Shown here: in pieces, positions 39,692 through 44,597 of the stretch | Layout: each line of letters starts with the position of its first letter | How positions within the stretch are numbered: the first letter of the stretch is position 1 | DNA from: an uncultured Rhodobacteraceae bacterium | Lineage (GTDB): Bacteria; Pseudomonadota; Alphaproteobacteria; Rhodobacterales; Rhodobacteraceae | NCBI GenBank assembly: GCA_947498645.1 | Contig: CANMKS010000001.1 | Span: 780,032 to 844,031 of the forward strand | Direction: 5' to 3' | Length of the DNA: 64,000 nucleotides | Made by a program: the position numbers and the translations under genes | Notes under the pieces: model-generated | The model's input: the letters and a program-made list of their open reading frames with translations, nothing else | Database searches by the model: none | Told to the model about the DNA's origin: nothing

Positions 39692-40036
39692 GGGGGTTGG
39701 TCTGCTATGCGGGACAAAGGGTGAGTTCGCTGCTCTTGCGCAGAGGGCTGCTTCCATGCGCTTTGCAGACCTTCACCTTGGATTGCACACGAGGCACATA
39801 CAATCAGCGATTAAAGCACTGATTCAAATTGATAATCTGTCCATTCCTCCATCGCTTTCCGAGCACTAAACCCGTAGGCCTTTTCAACTGGCCCGTAGAG
39901 GCATCGGCAGCAACTGCTTGGTCTGAGGTCACTCCTTGGCATCTATGTGCCACGAACAGTTTTGGTGTCGCAAACGGAAGGCCAATGCGGCAGCCGTCTT
40001 GCTAGTCATGGGACAGAAATGTCTTGCGGAGCCCAC

Positions 40037-40954
40037 ATGACTGTCATCAGCCAACCGTCAAACAGCGCGGAAGGGCATCGGTTTGGTGTCCTTTTTGTCT
40101 TTGCCGCTGGTGTGCTTTGGTCGACCGTCGGGCTTGGAATACGGCTGATCGACGATGCGGTTGTGTGGCAGATATTGCTTTACCGATCGGTCAGCCTGTC
40201 ACTTCTGCTTTACGTGTTCATACGCCTCCGGTCCGGAGAAAGCCCCTTTGCCCAGATCCGCCGCACCGGCTTTCCAGCGGTGATCGCGGGGCTGTCGCTG
40301 GTTGCTGCTTATTCCGGCGGGATATATGCGATCCAGTCGACATCCGTGGCAAACGCCATGCTCTTGTTTGCAACAGCACCCTTCATGGCGGCAGTTCTGG
40401 GGTGGATCGTTTTGCGCGAACCTGTACGCCCCGCCACCTGGGTGGCCATCGCCGTTGCCATTTCCGGTATCGCGATCATGGTCGCAGATAAATCCGGTGG
40501 CGTTGCCATGGTGGGTAGCCTGGCGGCGATTGGGTCCGCCTTTGGATTTGCGGTGTTCACCGTGGCGCTGCGATGGGGGAAATCGGATGAAATGCTGCCG
40601 TCGGTGTTTCTGTCCGGATTATTCGGCATCATGGTGACGTTCGGCATATGCCTGTTTTTGGAGTTGTCCCTGGTGTTGTCTGTGCGGGATGGCGGCGTTG
40701 CAATGGGCATGGGGGTGTTTCAGGTTGGTGCAGGGTTGATCCTGTATACTCTGGGATCTCGCAGCCTTCCTGCTGCAGAACTTGCGCTGTTGTCACTGGC
40801 TGAGGTTCTGCTTGGCCCGTTATGGGTCTGGTTGCTTATGGGTGAAACGGCCACGCTGAACACATTGACAGGAGGCGCAGTGTTGCTTGCGGCCATCGTT
40901 GGAAACGCCCTGTCAGGCAAGCGCCGCAAGCCGCCGCCGATCACCTCACCATAG
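40037..40954 (+). CDS. DMT/EamA-family transporter
   Basis: 10 TM segments in two EamA repeats. Confidence 0.85.
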   Translation: MTVISQPSNSAEGHRFGVLFVFAAGVLWSTVGLGIRLIDDAVVWQILLYRSVSLSLLLYVFIRLRSGESPFAQIRRTGFPAVIAGLSLVAAYSGGIYAIQSTSVANAMLLFATAPFMAAVLGWIVLREPVRPATWVAIAVAISGIAIMVADKSGGVAMVGSLAAIGSAFGFAVFTVALRWGKSDEMLPSVFLSGLFGIMVTFGICLFLELSLVLSVRDGGVAMGMGVFQVGAGLILYTLGSRSLPAAELALLSLAEVLLGPLWVWLLMGETATLNTLTGGAVLLAAIVGNALSGKRRKPPPITSP

Positions 40955-41514
40955 GGGATTGGAGACAACTTACCTCTGATGGATCAGCGGAGGATGCATG
41001 CGTTGCACCAATGTTCCGTTCCACCTGCACATGATCCGTGTTGCACCTGGGGTTCTGATATATGTGTTGCTATTGTGCGGCTTTGGCCCTAGGGCTTTAT
41101 CCTCTGGAGCGCTAACACGCCGTGCGACGGTATTTTCGGCCAATCCTGATCGCTCACCCTATCTTCCTGTGTTGACCCAGGCATCTGCACCCGGGCGACG
41201 CGGGTCAGATGACGATCAATTGGCCACATAGCTGACGATCACCTCTGTTCGACCCTACCATGCCCCGCCAAGTTGCTGCCAAGCAGTGTCTGGGTCGCTT
41301 CTGAGCCGGTCACATTGGCAGGTTCAGGTATCCCATGGTTTTCCATACCCGTCCAAATGTCGGACGACACAACAACTGCCCCTGATGGGGCTGTGTTTTC
41401 GAACTCGATTTGTGCCCTCTCGACGTCTCTGCGCGGTTCGCGCGCAGGGGCACATCATGGGCGTACCGGCGCTGGAACCAAGCGGTTGCAGCGTCGTTGG
41501 AGCATGACCTGAAT

Positions 41515-42876
41515 TTGGACAAACAACTGCTTTTCACCCCCGGCCCTGTGAATGTGGCCGAGACCCTGCGTACCGCGATTTGCAAAGAGGATATCTGCCA
41601 TCGTGAAACAGATTTTGATACCCTGCTTGCAGGTATTGAGCACAAAATACTTTCACTTTTTCAGATAAGAAAAAGAGAACGCTACCGCGCGGTCGTCATC
41701 ACCGGCTCCGGGACAGCGGCGAATGAGGCGATACTGTCCTCAGTTGCCGGAGATGGTGCTATTCTGATCCTGTCGAACGGAGAATTTGGCAGCCGGCTAC
41801 ACAAGACATCCGTGATCCACAACAAGAAGACCCATCTGATCGAAATGCCCTGGGGCATCGGCTTCGACATACCGCAGATCGCAGCTTACCTTGCGACCCA
41901 CAAGATTGATGTGGTGGCTATGGTCCACCACGAGACATGTTCCGGCATGCTGAACCCGCTGGCCCAGATTGGTGCGCTGGCAAAAGCCAGCGGCGCACTT
42001 TTTGTGGTGGACGGGGTCAGCTCGGTTGGCGCTGAGGTGATCGACATGGAGGCGTGCCATATCGCGTTTGTGTCCAGTTCCAGCTCCAAGGCATTGGGTT
42101 CATATCCGGGGCTGTCTTTTGTCGTGGGTCGCAAGAAACAGTTCAAACAGCTCAAACACCATGCAGCCAAGACCACTTACCTGAATCTCGCGACGTTCTA
42201 CGCATTCCTCAAGAATCACAGTCAGACGCCAAACACACCCGCGGTACCGTTGTTTTTTGCACTGGACCAAGCGCTGACGGACATTCTGCGCGAGGGCGTC
42301 CTCAAGCGCCATGCCCGTATCAAGGCGCGGGCTGATCTGCTGCGCAGCGGCATGCGCAGGCTCAACCTCGCCTTTTTGGTAGATGAGGCGGACATGTGTT
42401 CTGTTCTGACGACAGTGCAGGTTCCGGCATCAGTATCAGTGCACGATCTGCGTGCGCGTCTACGTGAAAGGTCCATCATCATCTATGAAGGAAAGGGATG
42501 CTTTGCAGGCAAGGTTTTTCAGGTCGGTAATATCGGGGAACTCTCGGATGACGACATCCGGTATGAATTTGCCGAGAGCCCACAGGTTGCCAGCTACGAT
42601 GCCACGGATGGCGGTCATTTTACATGGCATTCCGACATCGGTGATGGCCCATTGGCACAAAAACGAAAACTGACGTTGGTCGCGCAGCTTTCCAAGCCCG
42701 GAAGCTATGATGGCGGCGATCTGGAAGTTATGCCGGGCGCGCATATCATCGCCGCAAACCGGACACAGGGCTCCATCACTATTTTCCCAAGTTTTCATCT
42801 GCATCAAGTGACGCCTGTGTCACGAGGGACCCGACATTCTTTAACCGTCTGGGCGCACGGCCCTAAGTTTCGGTAG
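41515..42876 (+). CDS. Class V PLP aminotransferase (PhnW/2-AEP transaminase-like) fused in frame to the C-terminal part of a 2OG-Fe(II) oxygenase
   Basis: LLFTPGP, TGSGTAA, VHHETCSGMLNP, DGVSS and SSSSKAL (PLP Lys); after about 42564: WHSD..RKLT..QLS...YDGGDL..FPSFHLHQVTPVSRGTRHSL..W..GP.FR. Confidence 0.8.
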   Translation: MDKQLLFTPGPVNVAETLRTAICKEDICHRETDFDTLLAGIEHKILSLFQIRKRERYRAVVITGSGTAANEAILSSVAGDGAILILSNGEFGSRLHKTSVIHNKKTHLIEMPWGIGFDIPQIAAYLATHKIDVVAMVHHETCSGMLNPLAQIGALAKASGALFVVDGVSSVGAEVIDMEACHIAFVSSSSSKALGSYPGLSFVVGRKKQFKQLKHHAAKTTYLNLATFYAFLKNHSQTPNTPAVPLFFALDQALTDILREGVLKRHARIKARADLLRSGMRRLNLAFLVDEADMCSVLTTVQVPASVSVHDLRARLRERSIIIYEGKGCFAGKVFQVGNIGELSDDDIRYEFAESPQVASYDATDGGHFTWHSDIGDGPLAQKRKLTLVAQLSKPGSYDGGDLEVMPGAHIIAANRTQGSITIFPSFHLHQVTPVSRGTRHSLTVWAHGPKFR

Positions 42877-42892
42877 ATAGAAGAACGTAGAG

Positions 42893-43093
42893 TTACGTTT
42901 CGCGTTCCAGTTTTTTCCGCGCCAGTTTGCGGGCACGGCGGATTGCTTCAGCTTTCTCTCGTGCCCTTTTCTCAGAGGGTTTCTCGAAATGTTGCTTAAG
43001 CTTCATTTCTTGAAATACGCCTTCGCGTTGCAGCTTTTTCTTCAAGACCCGAAGAGCTTGATCGACGTTGTTGTCGCGCACACTAACCTGCAT
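42893..43093 (-). CDS. rpsU: 30S ribosomal protein S21 (divergent copy)
   Basis: [45 protein letters not shown]. Confidence 0.93.
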
Positions 43094-43343
43094 TTGGCTT
43101 TCACCACCTTGGAAGACTTACCTGAATGAGAGTTCCCAGAACCCTCGCCTTGTCAAGGTAATTTTGGTGTCGTCCACATTCCAACATGAGCGTTTTGCCG
43201 CCCACTCTGCTCTTGAACCCGACATCTTAAGTCGAAGGGTGCGATCACTCTGGTACTGGCGATCAAATACGCGCGGGACACCAAGCATAGGTCATCGTGC
43301 TGATACACCGGTACGGGGAAAAGGGGTCAGCTGGTGACTGACC

Positions 43344-44597
43344 TCAGGTCTCGGGAAAAGGTACCTGCCGCTCTACTTGCAATGGTGGAACAGGCTTCAA
43401 ACGATTTTCGCCCAGACGCGGATGCAGCCGCCCGGCAATTCCCCAGGCCAGCAGGCTTGCCGCTCCGGCGGCGGCAAAAATGCCGGATATCGGTGCCACC
43501 AAAAGGATCAGCCAGGCCACACCCGGTGTCAGGATGCCGGACACATCCCGATAGGATGAGTAGACTGCCGACATTTCGGTGCGTTCCGATGGTTTGACGG
43601 CCATCAGGAACGGCAATCCGGCACAAATATCCAAAAGGATCAGAAAGAAACTGCCGACAAAGAGAACGAATACTGTTGCAGACGGGGCTGCTGAAACCAA
43701 ACTGGCGGTACAGAACAGACATGCGAAAGCCATGAAGCCGGTTTGAACCGAGCTGCGCACGGAGTGTTTCTGCATCCATCTCAGCATCACCGGCGACAAA
43801 AACAATCCAGCATTTGTGATGGACAAGAGCGTCCCGCCCAGCGTTTCTCCAAGGCCGTTCTCAACAGCGAAGATGGGCAGATAAACAACATAGGCCCACC
43901 ACCCGCAAGAACGGATCACCGCGAAGAGCCAACCTGCGATCAGGCGGGGTTGTTGTAAGAACCGCCCCAGAAATGCCAACGGATTAACGGGTGCCCGCTG
44001 TGCCCGGGTGATCAGTTTGCCATTCCCCAGCCGTAGAAAGATGAACACACCCAGCATGGTTGCAGCGGCCATGCCGGAAATCACGAAAGGAGCGGGCCGC
44101 CACCATTCCCACAAAAGTACGCCCAGCACAGGGCCAACTGTCCACCCCAGGGCCGAATAGAACATACGTAGCGTTTCGCATTTTCCGAGATCAATCCGGG
44201 AGATGTAATCCAGCACATAGGCGTTGAAACACACAAAGGTGACGACGGTGGCCAGCGAGTTCAAGACAAGCCCCAGAACGATCATCTCCGGGGACCCCAG
44301 AGTTGCGAGGCCCGATCCTACAATGAATCCCGTCGCTCCGATGCCGTACATCCAGCGCCTCGCTATCCAGCGATTGAGAAAGGGAACGAGAAGCCCAGTC
44401 AGCAATGAGATAATCCCGATCAAGAAATAAACTGAACTGATCAGAGCCGCGTCCTGAAGCGCGTCGTACATCGCAACCGGAAAGACGGAAATCAGGATCC
44501 CGCGTGCAACCGCCTCAAACGCGGCCAAGGTCGCAAAACCCTGCACAGATGGTGCAGGTGCGTGTCGCAGCCATTCGGGGATTCGACGCTCAAACAT
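43344..44597 (-). CDS. MFS transporter
   Basis: About 12 TM segments, 417 aa; MFS-like topology. Confidence 0.75.
   Translation of the reverse strand: MFERRIPEWLRHAPAPSVQGFATLAAFEAVARGILISVFPVAMYDALQDAALISSVYFLIGIISLLTGLLVPFLNRWIARRWMYGIGATGFIVGSGLATLGSPEMIVLGLVLNSLATVVTFVCFNAYVLDYISRIDLGKCETLRMFYSALGWTVGPVLGVLLWEWWRPAPFVISGMAAATMLGVFIFLRLGNGKLITRAQRAPVNPLAFLGRFLQQPRLIAGWLFAVIRSCGWWAYVVYLPIFAVENGLGETLGGTLLSITNAGLFLSPVMLRWMQKHSVRSSVQTGFMAFACLFCTASLVSAAPSATVFVLFVGSFFLILLDICAGLPFLMAVKPSERTEMSAVYSSYRDVSGILTPGVAWLILLVAPISGIFAAAGAASLLAWGIAGRLHPRLGENRLKPVPPLQVERQVPFPET

What the first reader, a model, noticed from the sequence alone, without database searches (positions are those of the whole stretch)
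41515..42876. In-frame fusion of a PhnW-like aminotransferase to the catalytic half of a 2OG-Fe(II) oxygenase
Seen: one ORF with no stop joins a ~350-aa class V aminotransferase (ending ...NIGELSDDDIRY) at about 42564 to about 103 aa (EFAESPQVASY...GPKFR) carrying the full HxD...H triad and the 2OG-binding Arg (WHSD, HLHQV, GTRHS). The aminotransferase appears to lack its last helix and the oxygenase its N-terminal part. Known: such aminotransferases act on 2-aminoethylphosphonate and occur in phosphonate clusters, but no other phosphonate genes are present here. Inference: either a fresh deletion-generated chimera (a gene-birth snapshot) or a bifunctional amine-tailoring enzyme in which transamination and 2OG-dependent hydroxylation are coupled.
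Basis: partly seen in the sequence, partly recalled or inferred. Interest (0 to 1): 0.68.

Follow-up and report, generated by a model that had tools for sequence, protein, structure and literature searches.

The report
Deletion-made aminotransferase–oxygenase chimeric gene
A 5-kb deletion in this marine Roseobacter-group bacterium joined the front of an aminotransferase gene in frame to the back of an oxygenase gene, leaving what is probably a recent scar rather than a new two-function enzyme.

Summary
One open frame (TTG 41515 to stop 42876, 453 aa) joins residues 1-350 of a class-V aminotransferase to the last 103 residues of a small 2OG-Fe(II) oxygenase.

It is a deletion product. In L017, L024 and five further related loci the order is EamA, 393-aa aminotransferase, CDP-alcohol phosphatidyltransferase, nucleotidyltransferase, two small ORFs, groEL/groES, 182-aa oxygenase, rpsU. 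The window is collinear on both flanks and lacks exactly the 5,025-5,026 bp between aminotransferase codon Y350 and oxygenase codon E80. The joint is blunt, with no shared bases. The missing DNA is nowhere else in the genome.

No other fusion turned up among 1,244 aminotransferase homologs, 469 oxygenase homologs or 68 genome loci. An exact look-up finds the chimera on its own contig only.

The aminotransferase has lost its conserved terminal helix and both operon partners. The oxygenase has lost three strands and two helices of its conserved fold, including 17 invariant residues. Neither half shows stops, frameshifts or excess amino-acid changes, so the event is recent.

In passing: the chimera keeps an unreported, covariation-supported ~155-nt structured RNA leader. 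That leader precedes this aminotransferase in all 39 alphaproteobacterial loci examined.

The parts
39947..40954 (+). EamA/DMT-family transporter gene. It is the left-hand neighbour of the aminotransferase here and in relatives.
   Evidence: ORF. The L017 and L024 orthologs are called EamA (PF00892). It is 92.0% identical to L024 and collinear with it.
41346..41501 (+). Conserved structured RNA leader (~155 nt, five helices) directly upstream of the aminotransferase start. It is intact in the chimera.
   Evidence: Alignment A14 and RNAalifold. Pair counts: 95.3% of cells paired, 15 pairs changed on both sides, 0 of 500 shuffles reach the observed values. Covariance model R1 scores 163.6 bits here and occurs once in the genome. 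No Rfam match at E<=1.
41515..42876 (+). Chimeric ORF, 453 aa counted from TTG 41515 (an alternative TTG lies at 41497). The stop codon is the oxygenase gene's own.
   Evidence: The exact protein is on record at NCBI on one contig only, the window's own.
41515..42564 (+). Aminotransferase-derived part: codons 1-350 of a 393-aa class-V (PhnW/AGXT-like) aminotransferase. The PLP lysine (SSSSSK) is retained and the last 43 codons are lost.
   Evidence: 93% identity to P0002 over residues 1-350 with no gaps. Aligned against 12 reference loci. All family-invariant columns are kept.
42564..42565 (+). Deletion joint, ...ATCCGGTAT|GAATTTGCC..., blunt, with 0 nt of microhomology. 5,026 bp (L017) or 5,025 bp (L024) are missing.
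   Evidence: DNA alignments against the aminotransferase 3' ends and oxygenase mid-regions of five references.
42565..42876 (+). Oxygenase-derived part: codons 80-182 plus the stop of a 182-aa PKHD/P4H-like 2OG-Fe(II) oxygenase. It holds the jelly-roll strands with HxD...H and Arg. Codons 1-79 are lost.
   Evidence: 97-99% amino-acid identity to L017, L024, L031 and L032. AF2 model of the intact parent.
42893..43093 (-). rpsU (ribosomal protein S21), convergent with the chimera. It is the right-hand neighbour of the oxygenase gene here and in relatives.
   Evidence: ORF. PF01165 on the L017 ortholog. Near-identical to L024.
43344..44597 (-). MFS-type membrane protein gene that continues the collinear right flank with L024.
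   Evidence: ORF. Collinear with L024 16864-18117.
42565..43780 (.). Tract 98.8% identical to L024. It begins at the joint and ends abruptly inside the MFS gene. Flanking identity is 93.5% on the left and 87.8% on the right.
   Evidence: Identity profile.

Best explanation
The ORF is the product of one blunt-ended, non-homologous deletion of about 5.0 kb in the recent ancestry of this genome.

Ancestral order, still present in relatives: EamA transporter, structured leader, aminotransferase (393 aa), CDP-alcohol phosphatidyltransferase, nucleotidyltransferase, two small ORFs, groEL2/groES2 (opposite strand), 2OG oxygenase (182 aa), rpsU (opposite strand).

The deletion runs from just after aminotransferase codon Y350 to just before oxygenase codon E80. 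Both genes lie on the same strand and the joint happens to fall in frame (a one-in-three chance). Translation that starts at the aminotransferase's own TTG therefore reads through to the oxygenase's own stop. These points are shown by sequence comparison.

Inferred: transcription is still driven by the aminotransferase's own upstream region and leader. The product is most likely non-functional or badly impaired, for three reasons. The aminotransferase lacks its conserved last helix (FLxxLKDVLLxLQ). It has also lost both downstream pathway enzymes. The oxygenase remnant lacks three strands and two helices that belong to the catalytic-domain fold in every relative.

Loss of groESL2 is tolerated because a second groESL remains at C1:185,345-187,325.

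My odds: about 0.9 that this is a real deletion chimera; given that, about 0.75 that it is a scar without selected function.
For: Parent genes and order:
- Metagenomic contigs that carry the 93%-identical intact aminotransferase show the full gene order.
- The oxygenase motif lies ~6.14 kb downstream of the aminotransferase start, on the same strand, in L024, L027, L028, L029, L031 and L032, as it does in L017.
- The L024 ORF map matches that order.

Breakpoints:
- The window follows the aminotransferase references up to ...CCGGTAT and the oxygenase references from GAATTT....

Collinear flanks:
- The left flank is collinear from ~39,710 and the right flank to ~44,850 against L024.

True loss, not a move:
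- The 5,026 deleted bases match nothing in the genome except the paralogous groESL (73% identity) and a 105-nt groES-like piece on contig 3.
- This genome has 1 groEL; each of five relatives with the intact locus has 2.

Uniqueness:
- None of 1,244 aminotransferase hits covers the oxygenase part.
- The listed full-length oxygenase hits are stand-alone proteins of 177-250 aa.
- None of 68 genome loci matches both halves together.
- The junction 26-mer is absent from the metagenome contigs.
- The exact protein is on one contig only.

Impairment:
- 17 invariant residues lie in the lost oxygenase N-terminus.
- The AF2 parent model (pTM 0.81) places strands 4-6, 28-30 and 44-48 and helices 12-23 and 56-74 in the lost part.
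- The whole chain superposes on 3DKQ, PiuC, P4H and PHD2 at TM 0.64-0.73.
- The aminotransferase helix just after the joint aligns to the terminal region of 6PD1.

Recency:
- No stops or frameshifts in either half.
- Private changes are 4 non-synonymous to 7 synonymous in the aminotransferase half and 1 to 2 in the oxygenase half, similar to intact lineages.
Against: - The joint therefore rests on one assembly.
- The low ratio of non-synonymous to synonymous private changes (4:7) fits a very recent deletion equally well as continued selection on the aminotransferase part.
- All family-invariant aminotransferase residues up to D350, the PLP lysine, the oxygenase metal triad and the Arg are intact.
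- The regulatory leader and start codon are intact, and NCBI annotates the ORF as an ordinary protein. Expression and residual activity are not excluded.
- The AF2 model of the chimera was too poor (pLDDT 55) to judge its foldability.
Confidence: 0.85

Rival explanations
1. The chimera is a live new gene. It is transcribed from the intact leader and promoter. The truncated aminotransferase domain still folds and transaminates, with the oxygenase remnant as a tolerated or useful C-terminal appendage. Selection maintains the ORF, making it a true gene-birth snapshot.
For: The leader, the start codon and all invariant aminotransferase residues, including the PLP lysine, are intact. Private substitutions are 4 non-synonymous to 7 synonymous, well below the roughly 3:1 expected without selection. 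There are no stops or frameshifts. Natural fusions of this aminotransferase type with another domain exist, for example Tde1415/6PD1 (PMC6697681).
Against: The 4:7 ratio is also what a very recent deletion predicts. Both pathway partners are gone. The conserved terminal helix is missing. Two of the four private changes (V81A, D289A) fall at positions that do not vary among the aligned homologs. The architecture is seen nowhere else.
Confidence: 0.1
2. It is a selected bifunctional enzyme in which transamination and 2OG-dependent hydroxylation are coupled on one polypeptide.
For: The frame is open and both Pfam domains score above their cut-offs. The metal triad and the Arg are present.
Against: There is no second example in 5.8 billion protein clusters, 185,579 species genomes or the metagenome contigs. 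In relatives the two parents are separated by six unrelated genes and have separate upstream regions. The oxygenase part lacks 79 conserved residues of its fold.
Confidence: 0.02
3. It is an assembly artefact. The genome really contains the 5 kb and the assembler dropped it.
For: Read support could not be checked, and only one assembly carries the joint.
Against: There is no repeat or shared sequence at the joint over which an assembler could collapse. The missing genes are absent from all four contigs of a genome rated 99.99% complete. groEL copy number is 1, against 2 in relatives. The contig is 3.24 Mb.
Confidence: 0.03
4. Rival mechanism for the same deletion: it arose by homology-facilitated illegitimate recombination of an incoming DNA fragment (from transformation or a gene transfer agent) donated by an L024-like strain. 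The fragment's right end recombined homologously in the rpsU/MFS region. Its left end, which began at oxygenase codon 80, was joined bluntly to the aminotransferase. The alternative is a spontaneous internal deletion.
For: A tract 98.8% identical to L024 (15 mismatches in 1,216 nt) starts at the joint and ends sharply at ~43,780. Identity is 93.5% to its left and 87.8% to its right. The joint is blunt.
Against: The oxygenase C-terminal half is also 98.7% identical to L031, so part of the tract may simply be conserved sequence. The left edge of the tract can only be bounded to 42,493-42,565. The window has no oxygenase 5' half with which to test whether the tract once extended further left.
Confidence: 0.2

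Closest known systems
Deletion-generated chimeric genes and fusion pseudogenes in bacteria (gene fusion by loss of the intervening DNA). This is general knowledge, not a curated family.
   Same: Two same-strand genes were joined in frame by loss of the DNA between them. The product keeps the upstream gene's start and regulation and the downstream gene's stop. It is restricted to a single lineage.
   Different: Here both breakpoints, the seven lost genes and the ancestral state are all recoverable from close relatives. No decay is yet visible.
2-aminoethylphosphonate:pyruvate aminotransferases (PhnW, PDB 1M32; the AEPT domain of Treponema denticola Tde1415, PDB 6PD1; NCBIfam TIGR03301 and TIGR02326)
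   Same: These are the best PDB sequence matches (E 3.6e-48 and 5.6e-44). The fold is class-V, fold-type I, with the PLP lysine. Like Tde1415, whose paper (PMC6697681) shows a nucleotidyltransferase domain fused to the aminotransferase, the intact parent here is genetically linked to a nucleotidyltransferase.
   Different: It scores below both curated cut-offs (280 vs 360.8 bits; 200 vs 400.8 bits). No PEP mutase passes its cut-off in this genome or in 4 of 5 relatives. The operon partner is a CDP-alcohol phosphatidyltransferase. The substrate is therefore unknown. The chimera also lacks the C-terminal 43 residues.
PKHD-type / prolyl-4-hydroxylase-like 2OG-Fe(II) oxygenases (Pfam PF13640; PDB 3DKQ, PiuC 9GHL/9QN0, P. 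putida P4H 4J25, PHD2)
   Same: The HxD...H triad, the Arg and the jelly-roll core are present. The intact 182-aa parent superposes on these structures over its whole length (TM 0.64-0.73).
   Different: The parent family is a short ~183-aa Roseobacter-group clade of unknown substrate, about 20% identical to any solved structure. The chimera retains only residues 80-182.

Membership tests
AEP transaminase PhnW/AepZ (NCBIfam TIGR03301, TIGR02326, NF010006) | Whole-protein score at or above the curated cut-off | tested here: not met
   280 vs 360.8 bits, 200.4 vs 400.8 bits and 207 vs 296 bits. The truncation costs only ~10 profile positions, so the shortfall is mostly divergence.
AEP transaminase PhnW/AepZ | Genomic association with phosphonate synthesis or breakdown genes (PEP mutase, phosphonopyruvate decarboxylase, or phnX) | tested here: not met
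   PEP mutase TIGR02320 passes its cut-off in 1 of 6 genomes (HTCC2083), ~1 Mb from the locus, and not in this genome. The conserved neighbours are a CDP-alcohol phosphatidyltransferase and a nucleotidyltransferase. phnX and ppd were not searched.
Class-V (fold-type I) PLP aminotransferase (Pfam PF00266) | Domain score above the gathering cut-off, and the PLP-binding lysine present | tested here: met
   87.6 bits against a cut-off of 21.5. The lysine of SSSSSK is invariant in alignment A9 and is present in the chimera.
Class-V PLP aminotransferase | Complete C-terminal small domain, including the terminal helix | tested here: not met
   Homology stops at residue 350 of 393. The next residues (FLSTLKDVL...) align to the terminal region of 6PD1 and are conserved in the family.
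2OG-Fe(II) oxygenase, P4H/PKHD-like (Pfam PF13640) | Domain score above the cut-off; HxD...H metal triad and 2OG-binding Arg | tested here: met
   52.3 bits against a cut-off of 27. H, D, H and R correspond to the invariant H101, D103, H159 and R169 of the family alignment.
2OG-Fe(II) oxygenase, P4H/PKHD-like | Complete catalytic-domain fold (N-terminal helices and strands packed on the jelly roll) | tested here: not met
   Residues 1-79 are lost. They hold three strands, two helices and 17 invariant residues. Solved relatives align over the whole parent chain.
Selected multidomain (bifunctional) fusion protein | The same domain architecture conserved in other genomes | tested here: not met
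   No fusion among 1,244 plus 469 protein hits, 68 genome loci or the metagenome junction scan. The exact protein is on one contig.
Deletion-derived chimera | Parent genes separate, same-strand and syntenic in relatives; flanks collinear; intervening DNA absent from the genome | tested here: met
Deletion-derived chimera | The joint is supported by raw reads of the strain | not testable with these tools
Any Rfam family (tested for the upstream leader) | A covariance-model match | tested here: not met
   No match at E<=1 in 40,800-43,400.

The most novel reading that the evidence does not exclude
The chimera is an expressed, still-regulated new protein caught within a short time of its birth. 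Its intact structured leader still drives it. The truncated aminotransferase keeps activity. The exposed half jelly-roll provides a new C-terminal module that selection could act on. This would give a rare natural starting point, with a known ancestral state, for studying how deletion chimeras become genes.
Probability: 0.1. Interest if true: 0.6.

Novelty: new member of a known kind. Interest (0 to 1): 0.27.

Why it matters
As a gene, it matters little. It is best read as a recent deletion scar, and it should not be annotated as a bifunctional enzyme or as PhnW.

Its value is as a cleanly documented event. The ancestral locus, both breakpoints, the seven lost genes (including a second groESL) and the absence of decay are all recoverable. 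Few in-frame deletion chimeras can be described this completely.

The follow-up also exposed two things of wider interest:
- A conserved three-gene operon (aminotransferase, CDP-alcohol phosphatidyltransferase, nucleotidyltransferase) that probably builds an unknown polar head group and is not linked to PEP mutase.
- A covariation-supported RNA leader in front of that operon, with no Rfam family, which is a candidate new cis-regulatory RNA in Roseobacter-group bacteria.

Tried and rejected
- Junction 26-mer in metagenome contigs: no match.
- Second fusion in the 90% protein cluster: P0249 (401 aa) turned out to be the intact aminotransferase of L028, linked into the cluster through the chimera.
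- BLASTP '87% coverage' hits: these were spurious extension into the aminotransferase tail.
- AF2 model of the chimera: the composite alignment A13 gave pLDDT 55 and pTM 0.44, which is unusable. Fragment-only alignments misaligned.
- Repeats or microhomology as the cause of the deletion: none at the joint. TRF found only three arrays of 19-23 nt in 39.5-46.2 kb.
- Promoter and terminator scan: no sigma-70-like site, and terminator-like sites at chance level.
- Start-codon decay: rejected, because the intact L017 gene has the same TTG.
- Relocation of the missing segment: rejected.
- Phosphonate pathway context: PEP mutase is absent.
I used the alignment tools instead.

Full report
OBSERVATION. 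The + strand carries one open frame ending at TAG 42874-42876, with possible TTG starts at 41410, 41497 and 41515. Pfam finds Aminotran_5 (E 1.1e-24) followed by 2OG-FeII_Oxy_3 (E 1.2e-13). NCBIfam aligns the PhnW-AepZ model over profile positions 1-345 of 355. It aligns the PKHD/YbiX oxygenase models only over positions ~89-172 of 221.

IS THE FUSION CONSERVED? No.
- A search of 40 related genomes found six same-genus genomes with a stand-alone ~187-aa frame that is 64-73% identical to the last ~105 residues only. None had a close aminotransferase homolog.
- A search of 5.8 billion protein clusters gave 1,244 hits. The best were stand-alone 393-396-aa aminotransferases of Roseobacter-group bacteria at 85-93% identity, covering only the first 77% of the query.
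- Homology to the 93% homolog P0002 stops exactly at ...DDDIRY, residue 350 of 393. The homolog then continues FLSTLKDVLL.... A few '87% coverage' hits were spurious alignment extension.
- The oxygenase family has 469 hits. Its listed full-length members are 177-250 aa and cover 96-100% of the 182-aa parent.
- A scan of one genome for each of 185,579 species returned 68 loci, and none matched both halves together.
- The junction 26-mer is absent from the metagenome contig collection.
- An exact look-up finds the 453-aa chimera (from TTG 41515) as an NCBI-annotated protein on a single contig, the window's own. A 401-aa member of the same cluster is merely the intact aminotransferase of L028.

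WHAT HAPPENED. Metagenomic contigs that encode P0002 give the ancestral order: EamA, aminotransferase (393 aa), CDP-alcohol phosphatidyltransferase (255 aa), nucleotidyltransferase (275 aa), ORFs of 45 and 126 aa, groEL and groES on the opposite strand, 2OG oxygenase (182 aa), and rpsU on the opposite strand. The window reads EamA, chimera, rpsU.

The oxygenase motif WHSDIG lies ~6.14 kb downstream of the aminotransferase start, on the same strand, in L024, L027, L028, L029 (HTCC2083), L031 (Thalassovita taeanensis) and L032. The L024 ORF map shows the same genes.

At the DNA level the window reads ...ATCCGGTAT|GAATTTGCC.... The left side follows five aminotransferase references to the last base of codon Y350. 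The right side follows five oxygenase references from the first base of codon E80. No base is shared at the joint. The missing segment is L017:3459-8484 (5,026 bp), or 5,025 bp in L024.

Both flanks are collinear with L024: from ~39,710 through EamA and the 550-bp upstream region on the left, and through rpsU and an MFS gene to ~44,850 on the right.

The deleted DNA is not elsewhere in the genome. It matches only the paralogous groESL at 73% identity and a 105-nt groES-like piece on contig 3. This genome has one groEL, while five relatives with the intact locus have two each, one of them inside the locus. In L023 the interval lacks groESL but keeps the operon and an intact oxygenase, so the region varies among lineages.

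IS THE PRODUCT LIKELY TO WORK?

For the oxygenase part:
- The lost 79 residues contain 17 family-invariant positions.
- An AF2 model of the intact parent (pLDDT 80, pTM 0.81) places three strands and two helices there.
- The whole chain, N-terminus included, superposes on PKHD-type (3DKQ, PiuC) and prolyl-hydroxylase-type (4J25, PHD2) catalytic domains at TM 0.64-0.73.
- The remnant therefore keeps the metal and 2OG ligands but not the full fold.

For the aminotransferase part:
- The lost tail begins with a conserved amphipathic segment that aligns to the terminal region of 6PD1.
- Both operon partners were removed by the same deletion.

Against a scar reading:
- The TTG start is the native one.
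- The leader is intact.
- Every invariant aminotransferase residue up to the joint is kept.
- Private substitutions are 4 non-synonymous to 7 synonymous in the aminotransferase half and 1 to 2 in the oxygenase half. There are no stops or frameshifts, and pairwise dN/dS is 0.11-0.14 against the six closest references.

That pattern means the aminotransferase was under purifying selection for most of its private history. So either the deletion is recent or selection persists, and the data cannot separate the two. A model of the chimera itself was too poor to use (pLDDT 55).

MECHANISM DETAIL (inferred). Identity to L024 is 93.5% across the aminotransferase half. It is 98.8% over the 1,216 nt from the joint to ~43,780, and then 87.8%. 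A recombination tract that abuts a blunt joint is what homology-facilitated illegitimate recombination of an incoming fragment would leave. However, part of the tract is also highly conserved in L031, and its left edge cannot be tested, so I give this about 0.2.

WHAT THE PARENTS ARE. The aminotransferase is PhnW/AGXT-like but scores below NCBIfam's PhnW cut-offs. Its best solved relative is the AEPT domain of Tde1415 (6PD1), a natural nucleotidyltransferase-aminotransferase fusion that makes CMP-AEP (PMC6697681).

Here the aminotransferase is instead in an operon with a separate nucleotidyltransferase and a CDP-alcohol phosphatidyltransferase. PEP mutase passes its cut-off in only 1 of 6 genomes, and that copy is far from the locus. 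A role in building a nucleotide-activated polar head group is a reasonable inference. A phosphonate substrate is not established.

The oxygenase belongs to a ~183-aa Roseobacter-group clade labelled only '2OG-Fe(II) oxygenase / PKHD-type hydroxylase'.

SIDE FINDING. The ~155 nt upstream of the aminotransferase (41,346-41,501) are far more conserved than the rest of the intergenic region.
- Across 18 loci they contain a near-invariant 23-mer, GAACTCGATTTGTGCCCTCTCGA, unchanged in most of the 18 loci.
- They fold into five helices with 38 pairs, 15 of which keep pairing through changes on both sides.
- 95.3% of cells are paired, against 33-47% when partners are slid. None of 500 shuffles reaches the observed value on any of the five measures.
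- A covariance model finds the element full-length, immediately 5' of the aminotransferase, in all 39 complete alphaproteobacterial loci, and truncated by the locus end in one more. 22 of the matches were not in the seed alignment. It is absent from the gammaproteobacterial and other loci.
- It occurs once in this genome.
- Rfam 15 has no match.

VERDICT. The 'deletion chimera' alternative is supported and the 'bifunctional enzyme' alternative is not. This is a new example of a known kind of event and is of modest interest in itself.

Noticed in passing
window 41346-41501 (+); also L017 2241-2395, L024 9841-9996 and 37 further loci: Conserved ~155-nt structured RNA leader directly upstream of the aminotransferase. 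It has five helices, and 15 of its 38 pairs change on both sides while keeping pairing. 0 of 500 shuffles reach the observed values. A 23-mer is near-invariant across the seed loci. One helix is followed by a U-run. It is found at all alphaproteobacterial loci of this aminotransferase, once in this genome, and has no Rfam match. It is a candidate new cis-regulatory RNA or riboswitch.
   Followed up: partly
L017 2409-5218; L021 8001-10807; L024 9992-12819: Conserved three-gene operon: PhnW-like aminotransferase, CDP-alcohol phosphatidyltransferase and nucleotidyltransferase (with DUF6564). It is preceded by an EamA transporter, and PEP mutase is absent from most host genomes. It probably builds an unknown nucleotide-activated head group. 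The aminotransferase is annotated inconsistently in public records as PhnW or as alanine-glyoxylate aminotransferase.
   Followed up: partly
window 42565-43780: Tract 98.8% identical to 'uncultured Sulfitobacter sp. 2-538A' (L024). It is bounded on the left by the deletion joint and on the right by a sharp drop to 87.8% inside the MFS gene. This is a mosaic or recombination signature.
   Followed up: partly
G000 contig 3, 22547-22651 (outside the window): A 105-nt stretch 82% identical to the 5' part of the deleted groES2. It may be a groES fragment or a small paralog on a minor contig.
   Followed up: no
proteins P0244 and P0248 (JGI and Logan environmental contigs): Environmental copies of the same oxygenase have an out-of-frame N-terminus (MGHGATYRRCENLKPKLV, then DFDLREFAESPQV...). 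This suggests independent frameshift disruption of the gene in natural populations, or sequencing error.
   Followed up: no
L023 11992-14283 (Sulfitobacter sp. MF3-043): The interval between the nucleotidyltransferase and the oxygenase lacks groESL2 here. A second copy of the aminotransferase exists in the same genome (L046, 88%). The locus is structurally variable.
   Followed up: partly
L002 1498-2498 and L003 741-1827 (same-genus genomes G008, G005): In six same-genus genomes the oxygenase homolog (64-73% identity) sits in a different neighbourhood, with no rpsU alongside. In the two examined (L002, L003) it lies next to a BLUF-like protein, and there are tyrosine-recombinase-like fragments nearby. 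The BLUF and recombinase labels come from reading the translations and were not scanned.
   Followed up: no
window 41378-41391: A GC hairpin (GCCCC-TGAT-GGGGC) followed by TGTGTTTTCG inside the leader is terminator-like. It could be an attenuator arm of the leader.
   Followed up: no
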